DNA of 62,613 bases, filler included, from Deltaproteobacteria bacterium (GCA_016283195.1; 6 parts of 6 records of this genome joined end to end with filler, not necessarily neighbours in it), one strand, 5' to 3'; shown: positions 1 to 9,622, numbered from the whole stretch's first letter. Numbers and translations are program-made. The notes: a model not told the origin generated them from the sequence alone.

Positions 1-141
1 GGCCACTGTGTTATAATATGGTGGTGCAGCGGCCGGCGGAGTTTCAATTCACGCCCCCGTGCGGGGGGCGACGGTGCCCATGCTATTGTGGAAGGCTTTG
101 CTTACAATGGTTTCAATTCACGCCCCCGCGCGGGGGGCGAC
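1..141 (-). CRISPR. Type I-C CRISPR array, leader-proximal end (truncated by window start)
   Basis: 32-bp repeats GTTTCAATTCACGCCCCCG(T/C)GCGGGGGGCGAC at 41-72 and 110-141 (minus strand GTCGCCCCCCGC(A/G)CGGGGGCGTGAATTGAAAC, palindromic, ending ATTGAAAC); 37-bp spacer 73-109; bases 1-6 GGCCAC resemble a variant repeat end, giving a 34-bp spacer 7-40. Confidence 0.95.
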
Positions 142-297
142 AGTAGCAAAATAACTAGCTAATATATATAAAGTTTTCAGAGAACTTCCGCGAACCCTAT
201 ATTATGGTCTAGTCACTCACCAATTTCTCCTTATAATACAAGGAAATATTTTTGGCAACTAGCTTATTCTTTGTCTGTTTGCCAAGGGTTCGCGGAA
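142..297 (-). promoter_or_regulatory. CRISPR leader with 13-bp inverted repeat
   Basis: AT-rich region next to first repeat; TTCCGCGAACCCT (186-198) and AGGGTTCGCGGAA (285-297) are exact reverse complements. Confidence 0.8.
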
Positions 298-1394
298 TAA
301 AGTTCTTTCTCGATTTCTTCGATACTTGGCAGAGATGATTTAACCTCCCGTATAATTCGTTCTGTTTCGTATTCAGCAATACCAAGAGGTTGTGTAATAC
401 CTCTCAGTGCATATTTAGCTTTGATATTGCTTTTAGAACGGCATAAAAGTAATCCGATTGTCGGATTATCCTCCGGTGTTTTTATTAGGTCATCAACAGC
501 AGAAATATAAAAATTAAGTTTACTCACAAATTCTGGTATAAATTCAACAGCTTTCAATTCTACCACTACATAACAGTGCAAACGAGTATGGTACATCAAA
601 AGGTCAATATAGTAATCATCTCCATCGACCAGCAAATGATACTGACGTCCTACATAGGCAAATCCTTTACCCATCTCAAGCAAAAAATCATTGATGCGAT
701 TTGTTAGTTGACTTTCAACATCGAGTTCATTTTGACGATCCGATAGTTTTATAAAACCAAAGTTGTAAGGATCCTTAAAAACAGCCTTGGCTAAATCAGA
801 CTGTGGCTCAGGTAAAGTTTCTCCAAAGTTGGTAATAGCTTTGCCAGTTCTCTCATACAAGTTGCTATTTACCTGCATAAGCATTACATCGCGGCTCCAG
901 CCATTACGGACAGTTTCTAAAATATAAAAGGCGCGTTCGCGTTTGTTTTTTACTTTGGAAATAAGCGAAATATGGTGATACCAAGTTATCTTAGTAAGCG
1001 ATATCTCTGTTATTGAACCGTCTTGGCTTAATTTGGCAAGTGGCGCTTGCCGAATTGTAGTATCTTCGTAAGAATCCACAGGTAGTTTCAAAATTGGAAA
1101 ATCTGGGTATTCTTCGGCAAAAATTTTCATCGAACGAAGATTACGCTCTGAGTAGCCGTTATTTTTTCCAAACTCCATCTCCAAATCTATCGAGAGTTGT
1201 TTTATTACATGACTACCCCATCCTTTTTCTTCCTGTACATTTAAAATTTGTCTGCCAATTTCCCAATAATTTTCAAGTGTTTCTGCATTTACATTTAATA
1301 TAGTTCTTAGCTGGCCGGTGTGGATTTGCTTAATTATACTATCTCGCCATGAGAGATAATCAGCTGGAATTTGATCTCTAATAATTGAACTCAC
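264..1394 (-). CDS. yhcG: YhcG/DUF1016 family PD-(D/E)XK nuclease
   Basis: Motifs YWEIG, WG, GYSERNL, WYHH, FKDPY, GFAYVGRQ, IDLLMYH..LHCYVVVELK, NPTIGLLLC; GTG start at 1394 after GAGGTG SD. Confidence 0.9.
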   Translation of the reverse strand: MSSIIRDQIPADYLSWRDSIIKQIHTGQLRTILNVNAETLENYWEIGRQILNVQEEKGWGSHVIKQLSIDLEMEFGKNNGYSERNLRSMKIFAEEYPDFPILKLPVDSYEDTTIRQAPLAKLSQDGSITEISLTKITWYHHISLISKVKNKRERAFYILETVRNGWSRDVMLMQVNSNLYERTGKAITNFGETLPEPQSDLAKAVFKDPYNFGFIKLSDRQNELDVESQLTNRINDFLLEMGKGFAYVGRQYHLLVDGDDYYIDLLMYHTRLHCYVVVELKAVEFIPEFVSKLNFYISAVDDLIKTPEDNPTIGLLLCRSKSNIKAKYALRGITQPLGIAEYETERIIREVKSSLPSIEEIEKELYSANPWQTDKE

Positions 1395-1452
1395 AATACA
1401 CCTCAAAATTTAGCATATCACAATTTTATGATTCAACATATCTGCAAAACTG

Positions 1453-4682: not shown

Positions 4683-6155
4683 AGTGTACTCCTCCTTGTC
4701 TTTGGTTATTCTGTTATATTTATAAACGGCACAAGCTGTTTCCAGTACTATACTGCGTCTGTAGTTTTCAATAGTTAATAAGTTCGATGCAGATTTTACG
4801 CACTGTGTTTCTAAATCTTGAGGAATCGGATTGCCATCTAAAATGCATGGTAAAATACGAAGTACTGTTTTTTCAACAAGTTTTGCATTTACTTGCTCAC
4901 CATATGCACATTCGGTGATTGTTTTTGGTGATGGTGTACCTGTAGTATGTATTGGTGGAGTTTTTTTCTCTCCTTTTTCCTTTTTCTTTTTTGGCCAATA
5001 GGTTACATCCCATGAGAGCTTGGTATACCAGTTTTCCAAAGCAGCTAAAAAATCTGAATTTTGTAATTCGCGGTATAGTGTTATTGAAACTCGGCCTTGT
5101 CCAGGCGTTGCTTCCTTTATAGCCATAACCATAATGCGCTCTGGGTGTTCAATATTGCCATAATAGCCTTGAAGACGGTTATTAATTGCTTTAGCAAACT
5201 CCAAAGAGGTCTGATAGACTCCTTTTCCGTCTTCCTTTTCTACATCATCGCCATAATCCCAATCCAAGTCAGTACTGCTTGCTGTAAGCGGTGGTATTTT
5301 AGTTCCTGCCTCATTCCAGGTAACTATCGAAAGGCCTTCACCAAGAGCCACACCTTGGCGTTTAATAAGCCAACGCAAAGCCGAGTGAGCCTTTTGAGTT
5401 ATATCTGAGCTTATTTGGCACGCTTCGCTATCATCCAAAAAGCGACCTCTAAAGGTATAATTATTAGTATCGTTTGAAGAAATTATTTTGGCACTACTTC
5501 CGGCATTACGAATTTTTGATGGGTGATAAGCAGCTATTTTAGCCATTTCACCATCAACATAGTCTAAACCTGATTTTCTAATACGCTTTTCTGCATCTTT
5601 GGGGGCAAAATTGGTTTTACAATACTGCTCAAAATCAGACGAATTATAAAAATTTATCCAGCTGGTTTGTATAACAGGATCTTTCCAAAGGCAGGAATCT
5701 TTATCACCTGGTATTTGAACTTCCCAACGAATAAAATCGCTAATATCATCTTGAGATATTTGCGATTTTTCAAGATCCTGAATCAAGGTTTTGGAAGAAA
5801 CATAAGCGAGAACTGCCTTTACTTTTTTGGTTCCGTATTGAGAATTTGCCCAAGCCTCTAAAAGATTTTTATACAAATTGTATTTGGTCTCATTCCCTAC
5901 TACATATTCCAGTTTATCGCACAATGGATAAGCATCAGCTCCACTGGTACGGTTCGAGCAGCTTTCAGTGCAGGGCATAATGGTTACACGATCGGTGTCG
6001 GTTTTCTTTACTAATTCAGCTTTAATAAAGTTTCCATCTCCATCTAACATTATAGTAGCCGAGGCATTGTTGGCCGTGTGAAACATCGGAATTGGTTTAT
6101 CGGCATTTGCCTGTGTGTTATCGTAAACTTTAGCAAGTTCTACTAACCAACTCAT
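4284..6155 (-). CDS. cas8c: Type I-C Cas8c/Csd1 large subunit
   Basis: MSWL..L..YD, RTSG..AYPLCDKLEY, SSND..N.TFRGRF, QKAH.ALRWLI, YLYGRLLA, YLLGY..Q. Confidence 0.96.
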   Translation of the reverse strand: MSWLVELAKVYDNTQANADKPIPMFHTANNASATIMLDGDGNFIKAELVKKTDTDRVTIMPCTESCSNRTSGADAYPLCDKLEYVVGNETKYNLYKNLLEAWANSQYGTKKVKAVLAYVSSKTLIQDLEKSQISQDDISDFIRWEVQIPGDKDSCLWKDPVIQTSWINFYNSSDFEQYCKTNFAPKDAEKRIRKSGLDYVDGEMAKIAAYHPSKIRNAGSSAKIISSNDTNNYTFRGRFLDDSEACQISSDITQKAHSALRWLIKRQGVALGEGLSIVTWNEAGTKIPPLTASSTDLDWDYGDDVEKEDGKGVYQTSLEFAKAINNRLQGYYGNIEHPERIMVMAIKEATPGQGRVSITLYRELQNSDFLAALENWYTKLSWDVTYWPKKKKEKGEKKTPPIHTTGTPSPKTITECAYGEQVNAKLVEKTVLRILPCILDGNPIPQDLETQCVKSASNLLTIENYRRSIVLETACAVYKYNRITKDKEEYTMALEEDRTSRDYLYGRLLAVAQQLENAALQKMQESRETNAVRYMQQFSIKPATTWKILYEKKLPAYKKQLEPGLREWFERKIQDITALFKTDDYINDKALSGEYLLGYHCQLKSFRTKSDGSNGPSVENMED

Positions 6156-6841
6156 TACTCTTCCTCCGACACCAGCGGTTTTTGAGCGTTGTAATCTCTA
6201 ATTTCACGAGTAATCGAACAATTCTCCGGTCTAGGAAATTCGATAATTCCTTTTTCCATTTTTGCCTGCCAAAATCTGGCGATCAGTTTTTTAGTAGCCA
6301 CTTCTGTAGGATAATCAAAACCATGAAACATTAAGCCGTATGAAAACAAATCTTCATTATCATAAAAGCCACTGCCTTCACCAAAATTACATGGTTCAAC
6401 ATAACCCTGGCACTCTCTAGCTCCAAGGAATATGTCACGCCTACCCCCTTTTTCCAATGAACGCCTGGCAATATCAAAGTGTTTGTTTTCGTTTCTGTCT
6501 TTTTCTAAATCCGGGCGTTCTAAGTTCCATTCAAAATGAGCTTTTACTTGATACTCCACATCTTTTAGATATGTATAAACCGAGAGGTCATTACCGCCAC
6601 CACTATATAAAAGAGTCTTTATGTTCTTAGATTCAGTACTGATTTTGTGCATAATGCGAACTTTGTCTACGATCCAAATGATTGTTGGCTTCCAATAAAT
6701 ACTCTGAGTGATGCCCTTTAATGCCTCATATGTAGGAATATGATAAGTATTCTTTTCGCCGCCAATTTTTGTAATCGGATCCGTAAAGAGGGCATATCTG
6801 CCACTTAGCCGATATTCAATACTGTTTTCTTTCACGTTCAT
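6155..6841 (-). CDS. cas5: Type I-C Cas5 (Cas5d), pre-crRNA processing
   Basis: [43 protein letters not shown]. Confidence 0.97.
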
Positions 6842-6913
6842 CGCTCCATTTTCTAGCCATAGGCAAATGCTTTGCCTTATCTACTTTTCCCGCATTGAGC
6901 GGGAATGCGTTAC

Positions 6914-6942
6914 AATATGTACCAACGCAAAAACTATGTCAA
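6914..6942 (-). promoter_or_regulatory. Sigma70-type promoter of the cas5-cas2 operon
   Basis: Minus strand TTGACA (6942-6937), 17 bp, CATATT (6919-6914). Confidence 0.65.
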
Positions 6943-6948
6943 GCTATT

Positions 6949-6967
6949 ATTTTGACCTTTGACAAAA
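6949..6967 (-). promoter_or_regulatory. Putative Cascade operator (PAM TTT plus 16-nt protospacer) upstream of cas5 promoter
   Basis: Minus strand TTT-TGTCAAAGGTCAAAAT matches the guide at 7017-7002 at 15/16. Confidence 0.75.
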
Positions 6968-6981
6968 GTTTTTCTTCTACA

Positions 6982-7042
6982 TGGCAATCTCGCGATTGCC
7001 AATTTCGACCTTTGACAGTTTCAATTCACGCATCACTGCGAC
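6982..7042 (-). ncRNA. CRISPR-like regulatory RNA unit (solo shortened repeat, 16-nt guide, 3' hairpin)
   Basis: Minus strand GTCGCAGTGATGCGTGAATTGAAAC (last 14 nt identical to array repeat), TGTCAAAGGTCGAAAT, TGGCAATC-GCGA-GATTGCCA. Confidence 0.8.
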
Positions 7043-7087
7043 TAAAAGCCAGTATTTCATACCTACCATAAAAATTCCAGTCCCATT

Positions 7088-9622
7088 TCAAGCAAAGAGT
7101 GGCGAACTGTCAAAATTACATAGTTCGTATGATAACCCAAACTCATCATCATAAAAGCCATCATTCAGGGCATAAATGCCACTTTCCGGTAGAATTTCGT
7201 AAATCATATTTTCAGCCATTAGGCGCTTTAATTGATTTGAAAAAACATTTACTGAATATTGACCAGCTTCACTGAGCAGCAAGCGAAGTTTTTTTCCGTA
7301 ATCTTTTTCACCACGTTCCAAAGCACAAAGCCTGCCTGCAATGTCATTGTGGGCATAAGGGACAATAATTCCTGTAGTTATATCAGCAATTACCTCAAAA
7401 TTTTCCCATGCTGTTTTAAATGCCTGTTTATATGGCATCGGCCTCAAGTTTTTATTACTGTTAATTCGTTTGTATTCCTCAAATGCCAGCTTATTGTCAG
7501 ATAGCATATCAAGAACAGTAGCTTCATGCTCTGCTACAGCGTGTCTAAGGAGTTCTGATGAAAATTTGCCATAATAATAGGAGAAAAAGCTTTCTATCGT
7601 CCGTGGATGAATAAGCTCCACTGTTTCTTCCCCAATACTATTAAATTCACGTAACACACGCTCCATACATTGCTGGCCGATTTTAAGTTCAGCTAGTGAG
7701 CCTATTTTTTCATCTTGAAGAGCAAATATGGCCACCGTGCCGTTTATCTTATTACCATTTTCATCAGTAAGCTCATTATTACGATTACACCGTCCTGCTG
7801 TTTGAATAATAGAATCTAAGCCCGCCATATAACGCAGAGCACCACCAAAACTAAGGTCAACACCAGCTTCAATGAGCCTCGTGCTAACACAGATAACCTT
7901 ATCGCCATTTTTAAGGTGCCCCTGTATCTTGGCTATCTGAGCACGACGATGAGAGGGACACATATTGGTACTCAAATGATAGACAAAGTCAGCGCAATTA
8001 TTTTCTTTTATGAGTCTAAATAGCTCTTTTGCCTGCGGTTTTGTATTTACTACCGCCAAAAAGCTATTGTTTAATTTCATTTGCGTTTCTATATAATTAT
8101 ACACATCTTGAACCGAAGACTTAAATGTTCCACCGGCTGTTTTGTCGATAAAAGTTACTCTCTTCAAAGATAAAAAATGCTCCAAGGGGTTTTTAATGAT
8201 TTCATCATCAATATCGAGATGAAACATTTCTTCACCAATTTTATCAAGGCAAGGTTGGGTAGCCGTACAAAGAAGAGCAGATGATTGGCAGCATTTTACC
8301 AAATAATTAAGTCCCCAATTAAAGAGATAGGTAGAATTACTGGGAAGCGTTTGTATTTCATCAAATACTAAAACGCTATTAGCCAATCGGTGCATACGGC
8401 GAATTGCTTTTGTTCCGGCACCAAACATAGTTTCTAAAAACTGCACCATAGTTGTTACAATAATAGGTGCATCCCATGTTGCTTCATATTTCTCATACTC
8501 GTTCTCAGAATTACGCAATTCCTTCTTTTTTTCGCTGGTCAGATTGGAGTGGCATTCAAGAACTATCTGCCCTTTATTCTCTGCATTTTCCAAAACACTC
8601 CTTATCACATTGGCATTTTGGTCAATAATAGATGTATATGGGGCAATAATAAAAATGCGAGACATCTCGTGACGTTTAGCTTGTTCCAAGGCAAAACGCA
8701 GTGAAGCCAGTGTCTTACCGGCGCCAGTAACCGCAGAACAAGTATATATTCCTTTTTCACCACGCCCAATTTCAGCACAACGCTTTGATACTTCCTCGCG
8801 TATTTGTCCAAGTTTTCCGTTAGTTGAAAAACATTGCAAATGATTTTCAAGACGCTTAAGCAGGCTTTCCCAATCTGGTATGCTTTCTGAATATAAAGGC
8901 ACTTCTCCGGCTTCAAAGGCAGCGCTGTCCGTTCTATCAGCGTCAATAAGGCAACTGGAAAGATTTCTCAAATGCAGCCCCATATTGAAACAAACCTGCT
9001 TGGGAGCAATATTGCCGTTGGAATTCTTATAACAACCATTTTTACAAGCATCCAACAACACAGGCCGAGCATCATTTTTCCAATTATCGCTTTGCAAGCA
9101 TTTGCTGATTTCCAATTTTACTTTGGCTGGCAGTTTTTCTTCTATTTCCTCCAGCTCGTTATCGGGCAATTCTTTTTGCAATCGTTCAAAAAATTCTGAG
9201 TGTCCATCTGGAGCAATCATATCAGGAAGGCCAGAACCATGATGAAACATTATTGCGGCTTGAATAGCTGTAGCAGCTAGAATCTTATTCTCCGCTTGCT
9301 TTTGCAAAAGCTTTGCACCAGCTGTAGCATGGTCTTTTTTCTGTTGCGTTTTTCCGCCAACAGAGTTTTTTAAATAATTCTGCCAGGCATTAGAAGCCTT
9401 GCCAGCATCATGCAAAAGGCCTGCCAGTTTGGCAATGTCACAAAAGTTTTGGCTTTTAGAAAATAATTGAGACAAGTTACCGGTTTCCAGTAAGTGTACT
9501 TCCAGTGTTTGATAGGTTGAGTCTTCGTTTCTATACCTGGCAAGTGGTGATGAGTCAATAGTAGGTTGCACCCGCGAGCCTTCTTCTTCCTTATGAGCTA
9601 TTAGCGTTGAATCTGGAGCCAT
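7088..9622 (-). CDS. cas3: Cas3 HD nuclease-helicase
   Basis: LLHDAGK, HH, LIDAD, TGAGKT, HS, DEIQ, TAT, ST.LIEAGVD, QTAGRCNR. Confidence 0.97.
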   Translation of the reverse strand: MAPDSTLIAHKEEEGSRVQPTIDSSPLARYRNEDSTYQTLEVHLLETGNLSQLFSKSQNFCDIAKLAGLLHDAGKASNAWQNYLKNSVGGKTQQKKDHATAGAKLLQKQAENKILAATAIQAAIMFHHGSGLPDMIAPDGHSEFFERLQKELPDNELEEIEEKLPAKVKLEISKCLQSDNWKNDARPVLLDACKNGCYKNSNGNIAPKQVCFNMGLHLRNLSSCLIDADRTDSAAFEAGEVPLYSESIPDWESLLKRLENHLQCFSTNGKLGQIREEVSKRCAEIGRGEKGIYTCSAVTGAGKTLASLRFALEQAKRHEMSRIFIIAPYTSIIDQNANVIRSVLENAENKGQIVLECHSNLTSEKKKELRNSENEYEKYEATWDAPIIVTTMVQFLETMFGAGTKAIRRMHRLANSVLVFDEIQTLPSNSTYLFNWGLNYLVKCCQSSALLCTATQPCLDKIGEEMFHLDIDDEIIKNPLEHFLSLKRVTFIDKTAGGTFKSSVQDVYNYIETQMKLNNSFLAVVNTKPQAKELFRLIKENNCADFVYHLSTNMCPSHRRAQIAKIQGHLKNGDKVICVSTRLIEAGVDLSFGGALRYMAGLDSIIQTAGRCNRNNELTDENGNKINGTVAIFALQDEKIGSLAELKIGQQCMERVLREFNSIGEETVELIHPRTIESFFSYYYGKFSSELLRHAVAEHEATVLDMLSDNKLAFEEYKRINSNKNLRPMPYKQAFKTAWENFEVIADITTGIIVPYAHNDIAGRLCALERGEKDYGKKLRLLLSEAGQYSVNVFSNQLKRLMAENMIYEILPESGIYALNDGFYDDEFGLSYELCNFDSSPLFA

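What the first reader, a model, noticed from the sequence alone, without database searches (positions are those of the whole stretch)
6914..7042. Hidden mini-CRISPR guide RNA between cas3 and cas5 that appears to target the Cascade operon's own promoter
Seen in sequence (minus strand): a solo 25-nt repeat GTCGCAGTGATGCGTGAATTGAAAC keeps the array repeat's GTCGC start and last 14 nt but has a rebuilt CGCA/TGCG stem. It is followed by exactly 16 nt (TGTCAAAGGTCGAAAT) and an 8-bp hairpin (TGGCAATC-GCGA-GATTGCCA). Just downstream lies TTT-TGTCAAAGGTCAAAAT (6967-6949), a 15/16 match whose only mismatch is guide position 12; it ends 6 bp before the TTGACA -35 box of cas5. Established knowledge: Cas5c cuts at the hairpin base leaving an 11-nt handle, every sixth guide base is flipped out in Cascade, the I-C PAM is TTC/TTN, and short pairing supports binding without Cas3 cleavage (CreR/CreA-type regulatory RNAs). 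Inference: Cascade represses its own operon through this RNA. The general class is known, but this physically 16-nt guide capped by a non-repeat hairpin and adjacent to its target would be missed by array finders.
Basis: partly seen in the sequence, partly recalled or inferred. Interest (0 to 1): 0.9.

Follow-up and report, generated by a model that had tools for sequence, protein, structure and literature searches.

The report
Self-targeting guide RNA regulating CRISPR genes
A lone CRISPR repeat with a 16-base guide sits just upstream of the Cascade genes of a gut Treponema and matches their own promoter, so the system most likely throttles its own expression; this kind of switch is already known, and this is a new, well-supported example.

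Summary
Between cas3 and cas5c of a complete type I-C locus lies a 25-nt solo repeat with the full 11-nt handle. A 16-nt guide and an 8-bp hairpin follow. The TTT-flanked 15/16 copy of the guide ends 6 nt before a TTGACA -35 box.

Related loci support the interpretation. Ten Treponema-family I-C loci, the window included, carry the same design with about eight unrelated guide sequences, and the target changes with the guide each time. All 12 guide-target mismatches fall at guide positions 6 or 12, which Cascade flips out (P about 1e-10 to 1e-12). The PAM is TTT or TTC in 10 of 10. Two loci carry the element inverted, yet it still targets the cas5c promoter region with the PAM on the correct side.

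The design is already known. A 2024 preprint shows I-C solitary-repeat crRNA-like RNAs with an 11-nt handle, 3' hairpin, 16-bp match, mismatch at position 6 and a target next to the -35 box, and shows that they repress promoters. Here the target is the cas operon's own promoter, so the element is CreR-type.

Verdict: real; a new member of a known kind. There is no RNA or reporter evidence.

The parts
7088..9622 (-). cas3 (844 aa, HD nuclease plus helicase). Its stop codon lies 45 nt upstream of the solo repeat, so read-through transcription may supply the precursor RNA.
   Evidence: ORF. NCBIfam TIGR01587 (E 3.4e-35) and TIGR01596 (E 5.1e-24).
7018..7042 (-). Solo repeat (PsiR), GTCGCAGTGATGCGTGAATTGAAAC. 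It has a 4-bp stem (7040-7037 with 7032-7029) and a GTGA loop. The 11-nt 5' handle TGAATTGAAAC (7028-7018) is identical to that of the array repeat. Predicted Cas5c cut: between 7029 and 7028.
   Evidence: Relatives keep the same GTC, short stem and handle with different loops, and L215 has a fully different but still paired stem. The cut site is inferred from the I-C processing rule in the passages.
7002..7017 (-). 16-nt guide (PsiS), TGTCAAAGGTCGAAAT.
   Evidence: The guide is 16 nt long in all 8 direct-type pairs and in L211.
6982..7001 (-). 3' hairpin, TGGCAATC-GCGA-GATTGCCA (8 bp, GNRA-type loop). It probably forms the 3' cap of the small RNA and acts as a repeat-like or terminator-like element.
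   Evidence: Fold. A hairpin stands at or overlaps the guide's 3' end in 9 of 9 direct-type relatives with unrelated sequences (z -3.2 to -6.6).
6968..6981 (-). A-rich linker, TGTAGAAGAAAAAC. It ends in AAC directly before the PAM and may be the decayed tail of a second repeat.
Evidence: AAC precedes the PAM in 6 of the 8 direct-type loci.
6965..6967 (-). PAM, TTT, 5' of the protospacer on the non-target strand.
   Evidence: TTT in 5 and TTC in 5 of the 10 family pairs.
6949..6964 (-). Target (protospacer), TGTCAAAGGTCAAAAT. It matches the guide at 15 of 16 positions, with the mismatch at guide position 12.
   Evidence: It is the only PAM-plus-seed site in the window.
6914..6942 (-). Predicted cas5c operon promoter, TTGACA-17 nt-CATATT. 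The predicted transcription start near 6907 lies about 42 nt downstream of the target's last base.
   Evidence: 10 of 12 consensus matches. The equivalent promoter is found in L003 (11 of 12) and L209 (10 of 12). The start site is inferred.
6155..6841 (-). cas5c, the first gene of the regulated operon cas5c-cas8c-cas7-cas4-cas1-cas2 (down to 1453). The likely true start is GTG at 6835.
   Evidence: NCBIfam TIGR01876 (E 7.4e-78) and the other Cas families. Start-codon comparison.
41..141 (-). First two repeats of the CRISPR array (141-110 and 72-41), separated by a 37-nt spacer. The array runs off the start of the window. It is the reference for the solo repeat.

Best explanation
The element is a crRNA-like regulatory RNA gene of the CreR type, built from a solitary repeat unit, in a Treponema type I-C CRISPR-Cas locus.

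Proposed mechanism:
1. The RNA is transcribed as the 3' tail of the cas3 message or from a weak promoter of its own.
2. Cas5c cuts at the 3' base of the 4-bp mini-stem of the solo repeat. This leaves the 11-nt handle UGAAUUGAAAC.
3. The handle, the 16-nt guide and the 3' hairpin are loaded into a probably shortened Cascade.
4. That complex recognises the TTT PAM at 6967-6965 and pairs with 6964-6949. Pairing covers three 5-nt segments, with positions 6 and 12 flipped out.
5. It then sits directly against the -35 box of the cas5c-cas8c-cas7-cas4-cas1-cas2 promoter.
6. Sixteen nucleotides of pairing give stable binding but no complete R-loop, so Cas3 is not licensed. Transcription is blocked and the DNA is not cut.
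7. The result is negative feedback. When Cascade is scarce or inhibited, the promoter opens.

Shown here: the sequence anatomy; its conservation; guide-target covariation; the 6/12 mismatch rule; the PAM; and the position next to the promoter.

Inferred: transcription, Cas5c processing, Cascade loading, repression, and absence of cleavage.
For: 1. Anatomy at the stated coordinates in a complete I-C locus.

2. Covariation. Ten loci carry the design: the window, L106, L209, L210, L145, L002, L003, L208, L212 and L215. They hold about eight unrelated guide sequences, and each locus has its own matching target. Of 160 compared positions 12 mismatch, and all 12 are at guide positions 6 or 12. The probability given the mismatch counts is 1.2e-12, or 1.4e-10 after dropping L003 and L210, which have close relatives in the set.

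3. PAM: TTT or TTC in 10 of 10 pairs, always 5' of the protospacer on the guide's strand.

4. Two loci (L212, L215) carry the RNA gene on the opposite strand. Their targets lie between the -10 box and the ribosome-binding site of cas5c. They still have a TTC PAM, 16-17 nt of pairing and a single mismatch at position 6. A tandem duplication cannot produce this.

5. L106 and L209 are at least 95% identical in most 20-nt windows of the flanks. They are only 45-70% identical across the guide-hairpin-target block, and guide and target changed together.

6. Control. With the guide read backwards, 0 of 104 solitary repeat units had a site matching at 13 or more of the 14 pairing positions within about 500 nt. 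With the real guides, 13 of 104 did: 12 at 14 of 14 and one at 13 of 14. Over whole contigs the figures were 0 of 96 against 9 of 96.

7. Stem of the solo repeat: conserved as a structure. L215 has CATGC/GCATG in place of CGCA/TGCG.

8. 3' hairpin: present in 9 of 9 direct-type members with unrelated sequences.

9. Synteny (cas3, element, cas5c) holds in all members examined.

10. Published experiments on the same design in other I-C systems show Cascade-dependent small RNAs with an 11-nt handle and a 3' hairpin. [quoted passage not shown] The predicted geometry here is about 42 nt.
Against: - There is no expression or processing evidence. No RNA run holds the stretch.
- The window's PAM is TTT. 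The I-C PAMs named in the passages and abstracts I read are TTC, and TTA for some regulatory targets. Five of the ten family members do use TTT.
- The mini-stem of the solo repeat is only 4 bp, against 7 bp in the array repeat. Cas5c cutting of such a stem is untested.
- The scan found no promoter upstream of the solo repeat in the window. In L003 there is only a weak 9-of-12 site, within chance expectation.
- The window's hairpin has no U-run after it, so how the 3' end forms is unclear.
- Of 16 Treponema-family genomes with a close Cas5c, 10 lack the element. Among 78 diverse I-C loci scanned, 76 lack it. It is therefore dispensable.
- A site at about -37 to -57 could in principle activate rather than repress. 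Repression rests on the analogy with the published I-C reporters.
Confidence: 0.85

Rival explanations
1. A decayed solo repeat beside a neutral local duplication, or the remnant of a two-unit mini-array whose two spacers are copies. It would have no function.
For: Guide and target are direct repeats 53 nt apart. The linker before the target ends in AAC, like a repeat tail, in 6 of the 8 direct-type loci. Solo repeats are common and often spurious according to the passages of 10.1101/2023.03.03.530964 read. Two metagenome loci (L175, L176) do show plain repeat-plus-spacer duplications preceded by AAC.
Against: Neutral copies would diverge at random positions. Here 12 of 12 mismatches in 10 loci fall at positions 6 or 12. 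Guide and target change together between near-identical loci. A TTY PAM is present in 10 of 10 pairs. In the two inverted-type loci the two copies form an inverted repeat with the PAM on the correct side.
Confidence: 0.03
2. The two 16-bp copies are operator sites for a DNA-binding protein that controls the cas5c promoter. The neighbouring solo repeat would be incidental.
For: Direct repeats next to a -35 box are typical operators. Both copies end in the conserved AAAT.
Against: One copy always starts exactly at the end of the 11-nt crRNA handle, and the other always follows TTY. The sequence is unrelated between close relatives, which would require the protein's specificity to change each time. 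The period-6 tolerance of mismatches is a Cascade signature and is not expected of a protein operator.
Confidence: 0.02
3. The RNA is real and binds Cas proteins, but its main role is different. It could be a decoy that titrates Cas5c or Cascade, as phage solitary-repeat anti-CRISPR RNAs do. It could also be a guide for another genomic target, with the promoter match secondary.
For: Solitary repeat RNAs that inhibit CRISPR-Cas exist (abstract of PMC10651486 in the listing). No whole genome is held for the window, so distant targets cannot be excluded. Most of the other solitary repeat units sampled (91 of 104 distinct units) have no recognisable nearby target.
Against: A decoy needs no conserved match to a site in its own locus. 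Within 62.6 kb the promoter site is the only PAM-plus-seed match. The target keeps a fixed place, 4-6 nt before the -35 box, in all 8 direct-type loci.
Confidence: 0.05
4. The RNA acts as an antisense RNA on the cas5c transcript and does not guide Cascade to DNA.
For: In the two inverted-type loci the guide is complementary to the 5' untranslated region of the cas5c mRNA.
Against: In the 8 direct-type loci, the window included, guide and target have the same sense on the same strand, so the RNAs cannot pair. There the target also lies upstream of the promoter and is not part of the cas5c mRNA. The PAM and the 6/12 rule would go unexplained.
Confidence: 0.02

Closest known systems
Type I-C solitary-repeat-unit crRNA-like RNAs that repress the promoters of Nezha, Gabija and 'CRISIS' defence genes (bioRxiv 10.1101/2024.12.27.630466; passages read, figures and supplements not seen)
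   Same: Located between cas3 and cas5c. One repeat-like unit with a short palindrome and the conserved 11-nt 5' handle. A 3' hairpin. About 16 bp of complementarity, with mismatches tolerated at positions 6 and 12. A 5' TTN PAM. The target sits directly beside the -35 box, with the transcription start 37-46 bp downstream of the target (about 42 nt predicted here).
   Different: In the published cases the targeted promoter drives non-cas defence genes inserted between cas3 and the repeat unit, and the RNA gene lies downstream of that cargo. Here there is no cargo. The RNA gene lies upstream of its target, and the target is the promoter of cas5c-cas8c-cas7 itself.

The published RNAs are 48-50 nt. 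Here the hairpin starts at guide nucleotide 17 or earlier, which predicts about 37-47 nt and hence a physically shorter spacer. This is an inference, because I could not see their figures.

The published hosts named in the passages I read are mainly Neisseria; here the host is Treponema.
CreR, Cas-regulating RNAs from degenerated mini-CRISPRs (bioRxiv 10.1101/2023.03.10.532045; abstract and passages read)
   Same: A crRNA-like RNA encoded in the cas locus guides the effector to the promoter of its own cas genes. Complementarity is limited, giving autorepression without cleavage.
   Different: CreR was shown experimentally for I-B, I-E and V-A. For I-C the paper only mentions manually found candidates in its Figure S7, which I could not see. 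The classical form has two degenerate repeats flanking the spacer. Here only one repeat is recognisable and a hairpin takes the place of the second.
V-A CreR/Cracr with a single repeat, a spacer and a rho-independent terminator, and short-spacer I-F crRNA-like RNAs (bioRxiv 10.1101/2024.10.29.618823; passages read)
   Same: A single repeat-like unit, a short guide and a terminal hairpin. The spacers are physically shortened (17-27 nt in I-F). That work lists I-C loci among those regulated by such RNAs.
   Different: The effector (Cas12a or Csy) and the handle differ. In several relatives of the window the hairpin has a U-run, like a terminator, but in the window it does not. No phage copy of these Treponema guides was found.
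I-F1, I-E, I-B and I-D regulatory mini-arrays (bioRxiv 10.1101/2023.03.03.530964; passages read)
   Same: A shortened spacer that matches the effector gene's promoter, with a PAM and with mismatches at positions 6 and 12.
   Different: Those are two-repeat mini-arrays that target cas8, cas10d or cas6 promoters. The term I-C has 0 occurrences in the main text of that preprint.
CreTA, a Cascade-repressed toxin-antitoxin RNA pair (described in passages)
   Same: A crRNA-like RNA plus Cascade repress a promoter inside the cas locus.
   Different: No toxin gene lies under the targeted promoter here. The promoter is followed by about 70 nt of leader and then cas5c.

Membership tests
Type I-C solitary-repeat-unit crRNA-like RNA (crlRNA) | A repeat-like unit with a palindrome, followed by the conserved 3' segment of the local repeat (the 11-nt handle) | tested here: met
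   7042-7018 has a 4-bp stem plus TGAATTGAAAC, identical to the last 11 nt of the array repeat.
Type I-C solitary-repeat-unit crRNA-like RNA (crlRNA) | Located inside the I-C cas locus, between cas3 and cas5c | tested here: met
   cas3 at 9622-7088 and cas5c at 6841-6155. The same synteny holds in all relatives examined.
Type I-C solitary-repeat-unit crRNA-like RNA (crlRNA) | A PAM-flanked partial match (about 16 bp) of the spacer-like sequence to a promoter region, with mismatches tolerated at positions 6 and 12 | tested here: met
   TTT plus a 15-of-16 match with the mismatch at position 12, ending 6 nt before the -35 box. In the family, 12 of 12 mismatches are at positions 6 or 12.
Type I-C solitary-repeat-unit crRNA-like RNA (crlRNA) | A 3' hairpin after the spacer-like sequence | tested here: met
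   An 8-bp hairpin at 7001-6982. Present in 9 of 9 direct-type relatives.
Type I-C solitary-repeat-unit crRNA-like RNA (crlRNA) | Cas5c- and Cascade-dependent maturation to a small RNA with an 11-nt 5' handle | not testable with these tools
   No RNA run holds the stretch. This needs small-RNA sequencing or an in vitro Cas5c assay.
Type I-C solitary-repeat-unit crRNA-like RNA (crlRNA) | Cascade-dependent repression of the targeted promoter without DNA cleavage | not testable with these tools
   This needs a reporter assay and a cleavage assay.
CRISIS-type arrangement (CRISPR-supervised defence cargo) | Non-cas defence genes lie between the targeted promoter and the repeat unit | tested here: not met
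   No ORF of 60 aa or more lies between the promoter (6942-6914) and cas5c, and the repeat unit lies upstream of its target.
CreR (Cas autorepression RNA) | The target lies in or beside the promoter of the effector cas genes of the same locus | tested here: met
   The promoter is conserved in relatives.
CreR (Cas autorepression RNA) | Mini-CRISPR form, with two degenerate repeats flanking the spacer | tested here: inconclusive
   Only one repeat is recognisable. The hairpin plus the A-rich tail ending in AAC (34 nt in the window) has about the length of a repeat, but it has no alignable similarity to one.
CreTA | A toxin gene under the Cascade-repressed promoter | tested here: not met
   The promoter is followed by the leader and cas5c. 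Relatives have short leaders with no conserved small ORF.
Canonical CRISPR array | Two or more full repeats separated by spacers of normal length | tested here: not met
   There is a single 25-nt unit against a 32-nt array repeat, and a 16-nt guide against a 37-nt array spacer. Tandem Repeats Finder and Rfam report nothing here.

The most novel reading that the evidence does not exclude
The guide-hairpin-target block may be a fast-evolving 'lock and key' cassette. Near-identical Treponema loci carry different, internally matched guide-target pairs, and the element exists in two orientations.

This pattern would fit diversifying selection on the autoregulatory address. One possible driver is escape from phage RNAs that copy the host guide to shut down cas expression.

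In addition, the guide is physically only 16-17 nt long, that is three 5-nt pairing segments closed by a hairpin. It would then assemble a miniature I-C Cascade with about three Cas7 subunits, specialised for binding without Cas3 recruitment.
Probability: 0.25. Interest if true: 0.65.

Novelty: new member of a known kind. Interest (0 to 1): 0.45.

Why it matters
The finding extends RNA-guided self-regulation of CRISPR-Cas to type I-C systems of Spirochaetota. It rests on unusually clean comparative evidence: the pattern of tolerated mismatches reproduces the geometry of Cascade pairing without any experiment.

It gives a compact natural design (one short repeat, 16 nt of guide, one hairpin) for Cascade-based repression without cleavage.

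Array finders, and annotation pipelines built on them, miss such elements. Treponema I-C loci that carry this element are probably kept partly repressed. This matters for judging how active these CRISPR systems are in gut and rumen communities.

The hypervariable, internally matched guide-target cassette is a testable lead on an arms race over the regulatory address.

Tried and rejected
- Whole-genome search of the window's own genome: none is held.
- Expression: no RNA holder is listed among public runs.
- Laying four DNA runs on 6780-7180 gave only short, low-depth contigs that stop outside the element, so no strain variants were seen.
- Phage mimics of the guides: two scans of viral contigs, one with the handle plus the window's seed and one with the handle plus TAG, gave 5 and 39 stretches. 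The best match to any family guide was 11 of 14 pairing positions, so no mimic was found in that collection. The first viral scan, with the solo-repeat pattern, gave 5 stretches, none of this subfamily.
- Rfam: only sub-threshold noise; CRISPR-DR2 scored 15.9 bits against a gathering score of 37.
- Intrinsic terminator on the sense strand at the hairpin: the scan did not call one in the window, L003 or L209. In L209 the scan called one only on the opposite strand.
- A dedicated promoter for the RNA: none was called in the window, and L003 has only a weak site.
- Toxin under the promoter (CreTA): rejected. The 14-codon ORF in the window's leader has no ribosome-binding site and is absent from relatives.
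- Generality across I-C: only 2 of 78 diverse I-C loci (L002, L003) have a handle-plus-guide and target pair within 500 nt upstream of cas5c.
- Supplementary files and figures of the four preprints could not be seen. Figure S7 of 10.1101/2023.03.10.532045 and Supplementary Data 1 of 10.1101/2024.12.27.630466 may already list I-C cas-autoregulating elements or Treponema loci.

Full report
**1. What is in the window**

On the minus strand, positions 9622 to 1453 hold a complete type I-C operon: cas3, cas5c, cas8c, cas7, cas4, cas1 and cas2 (ORFs; NCBIfam hits, for example Cas5c TIGR01876 at E 7.4e-78). A YhcG-type nuclease gene follows. Then comes a CRISPR array whose first two 32-nt repeats lie at 141-110 and 72-41, separated by a 37-nt spacer.

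- a 25-nt solo repeat at 7042-7018, which keeps GTCGC and the last 14 nt of the array repeat around a rebuilt 4-bp stem;
- a 16-nt guide at 7017-7002;
- an 8-bp hairpin with a GCGA loop at 7001-6982 (fold);
- a 14-nt A-rich linker;
- TTT at 6967-6965;
- a 15-of-16 copy of the guide at 6964-6949;
- six bases, and then TTGACA-17 nt-CATATT at 6942-6914.

With up to one mismatch the guide occurs only at these two places in 62.6 kb. None of 100 shuffles gave two matches.

**2. Is it more than a duplication? The comparative test**

The closest Cas5c relatives are from Treponema and other Spirochaetaceae assemblies. I collected related loci in three ways:
- by Cas5c similarity in one genome per species (80 loci kept);
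- by the same pattern, and by Cas5c, in 401 genomes of the Treponema family.

L139 is the window's own contig (100% identity over 12,744 nt) and was dropped. L206, L207, L218 and L220 (the same genomes as L002 and L003), L214 (the same as L209), L229 (the same as L210) and L222 (the same as L212) were counted once. L211 has the repeat, guide and hairpin, but its contig ends before any target, so it is not in the pair count.

Ten loci remain, the window included. Eight are 'direct' like the window: cas3, solo repeat, 16-nt guide, hairpin, linker, PAM and target, then 4-6 nt, TTGAC[A/G] and cas5c. Their guides fall into about eight unrelated sequence families, and in every locus the target matches that locus's own guide.

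Of 160 compared positions 12 mismatch, and all 12 lie at guide positions 6 or 12. Given the number of mismatches per pair, the chance of this is 1.2e-12. It is 1.4e-10 if L003 and L210 are left out because close relatives are already in the set. Positions 6 and 12 are the bases that Cascade flips out of the guide-target duplex. This is established knowledge and is restated in the passage.

The PAM is TTT in five pairs and TTC in five. Position 17 also pairs in 6 of 10. Pairing therefore amounts to three 5-nt segments.

**3. Two further observations exclude a passive duplication**

First, L212 and L215 carry the RNA gene on the opposite strand, still between cas3 and cas5c. Their targets lie between the -10 box and the ribosome-binding site of cas5c. 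They have a TTC PAM on the correct side, 16-17 nt of pairing and a single mismatch at position 6. L215 also has a different but fully paired repeat stem (CATGC/GCATG), which is a compensatory change.

Second, L106 and L209 are at least 95% identical in most flanking 20-nt windows. They drop to 45-70% identity across the guide-hairpin-target block, and guide and target differ at the same positions. L002 and L003 show the same effect on a smaller scale: a single C/T difference at position 9 in both guide and target.

As a control I read each guide backwards. None of 104 distinct solitary repeat units then had a site matching at 13 or more of the 14 pairing positions within about 500 nt. With the real guides 13 did: 12 at 14 of 14 and one at 13 of 14. 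Over whole contigs the figures were 0 of 96 against 9 of 96.

**4. The hairpin**

In 9 of 9 direct-type members a stable hairpin begins at, or overlaps, the 3' end of the guide. Its sequence is unrelated between lineages (z -3.2 to -6.6 against mononucleotide shuffles).

In several relatives the conserved AAAT at the end of the guide pairs with a U-run after the stem, as in an intrinsic terminator. The window has no U-run. The promoter and terminator scan called no sense-strand terminator.

The published I-C work reports that such 3' hairpins are cut at their 3' base by Cas5c in vitro, and that the RNAs end within the hairpin loop in vivo. The hairpin is therefore best read as a repeat-like 3' cap. 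It may also stop read-through from cas3. Which of these holds in the window is open.

**5. Mechanism**

The most likely mechanism is Cascade autorepression, as set out under Best explanation.

The sequence evidence fixes the guide, the PAM, the pairing register and the position of the bound complex: directly against the -35 box, with the predicted transcription start about 42 nt downstream of the target's end.

Everything biochemical is inferred. The inference is backed by experiments on the same design in other I-C systems, which showed small-RNA ends, primer-extension start sites 37-46 bp downstream of the targets, and GFP repression (passages).

An antisense mechanism is excluded for the direct type, because guide and target have the same sense and the target lies upstream of the promoter.

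**6. Distribution**

The element is patchy:
- 6 of the 16 Treponema-family genomes with a close Cas5c have it (G001, G002, G082, G223, G296, G309). The other 10 mostly have cas3 abutting cas5c.
- Among 78 diverse I-C loci with enough upstream sequence, only L002 and L003 have it.
- Many other short-stem solitary repeats exist in I-C contexts without a nearby target. A few have distant or different targets (L090, L176, L199). That fits the published cargo-regulating type.

**7. Comparison with what is known**

The class is known. The sources I read are:
- CreR (10.1101/2023.03.10.532045): abstract and passages.
- Regulatory mini-arrays (10.1101/2023.03.03.530964): passages. The term I-C has 0 occurrences in its main text.
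- Single-repeat CreR with terminator, and short spacers (10.1101/2024.10.29.618823): passages.
- I-C solitary-repeat crlRNAs (10.1101/2024.12.27.630466): passages. This is the closest.

The last of these already describes, with experiments, the handle, the 3' hairpin, the 16-bp match, the rule for positions 6 and 12, and the placement beside the -35 box.

The differences here are:
- the regulated promoter is that of cas5c-cas8c-cas7 itself, with no cargo genes;
- the RNA gene stands immediately upstream of its target, or inverted beside it;
- the spacer is physically about 16 nt long;
- the host is Treponema.

My four literature searches found no experimental demonstration of cas autorepression in a I-C system and no description of these Treponema elements. 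I could not see the figures and supplements that might list them.

**8. Verdict**

I place it as a new member of a known kind.

I score interest at 0.45. The covariation result is clean and the hypervariable cassette is a worthwhile lead, but a specialist would not be surprised by the element itself.

Noticed in passing
window 264-1406 (-): A 380-aa ORF between cas2 and the CRISPR array is a YhcG/DUF1016 PDDEXK nuclease (Pfam PF06250 at E 6.5e-58 and PF17761 at E 1.8e-36). This is an unusual position, inside the leader side of the array.
   Followed up: partly
window 6905-6887 and 6877-6861 (-): The cas5c leader of the window holds two hairpins, TTCCCGC...GCGGGAA and AGGCAAA..TTTGCCT, plus a 14-codon ORF. 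The relatives have short leaders without them. Their function is unknown.
   Followed up: no
L106 against L209, guide-hairpin-target block: Near-identical loci (flanks at least 95% identical) differ at 5-6 of 16 guide positions, with matching changes in the target, and have unrelated hairpins. The block behaves as a hypervariable cassette.
   Followed up: partly
L212 (G082) and L215 (G309): An inverted version of the element. The RNA gene lies on the strand opposite to cas5c, and the target lies between the -10 box and the ribosome-binding site.
   Followed up: yes
L176, around 670-800 (+): A solitary repeat whose 16-nt guide equals the TTC-flanked 3' end of an adjacent tRNA-like sequence. A second repeat-plus-guide copy follows. 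It may be a mobile element at a tRNA site.
   Followed up: no
L199 / L204 (a viral contig of IMG/VR): A solitary I-C repeat unit with a palindromic, TTC-flanked site matching 13 of 14 pairing positions, 2.3 kb upstream. This is a cargo-type arrangement on a contig classed as viral.
   Followed up: no
L090, around 75-175 (-): A solitary repeat whose guide has a 20-nt identical, TTC-flanked copy 56 nt upstream, next to a lipoprotein-like ORF. There is no cas gene in the 2.3 kb held.
   Followed up: no
L088, L140, L147, L159, L192 and others: Families of short-stem solitary repeats recur in unrelated metagenome contigs, each with a conserved following sequence. One example is a 24-nt unit followed by TTCTTGCCCATTCAGA in 5 contigs. 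None has a recognisable target within the contig.
   Followed up: no
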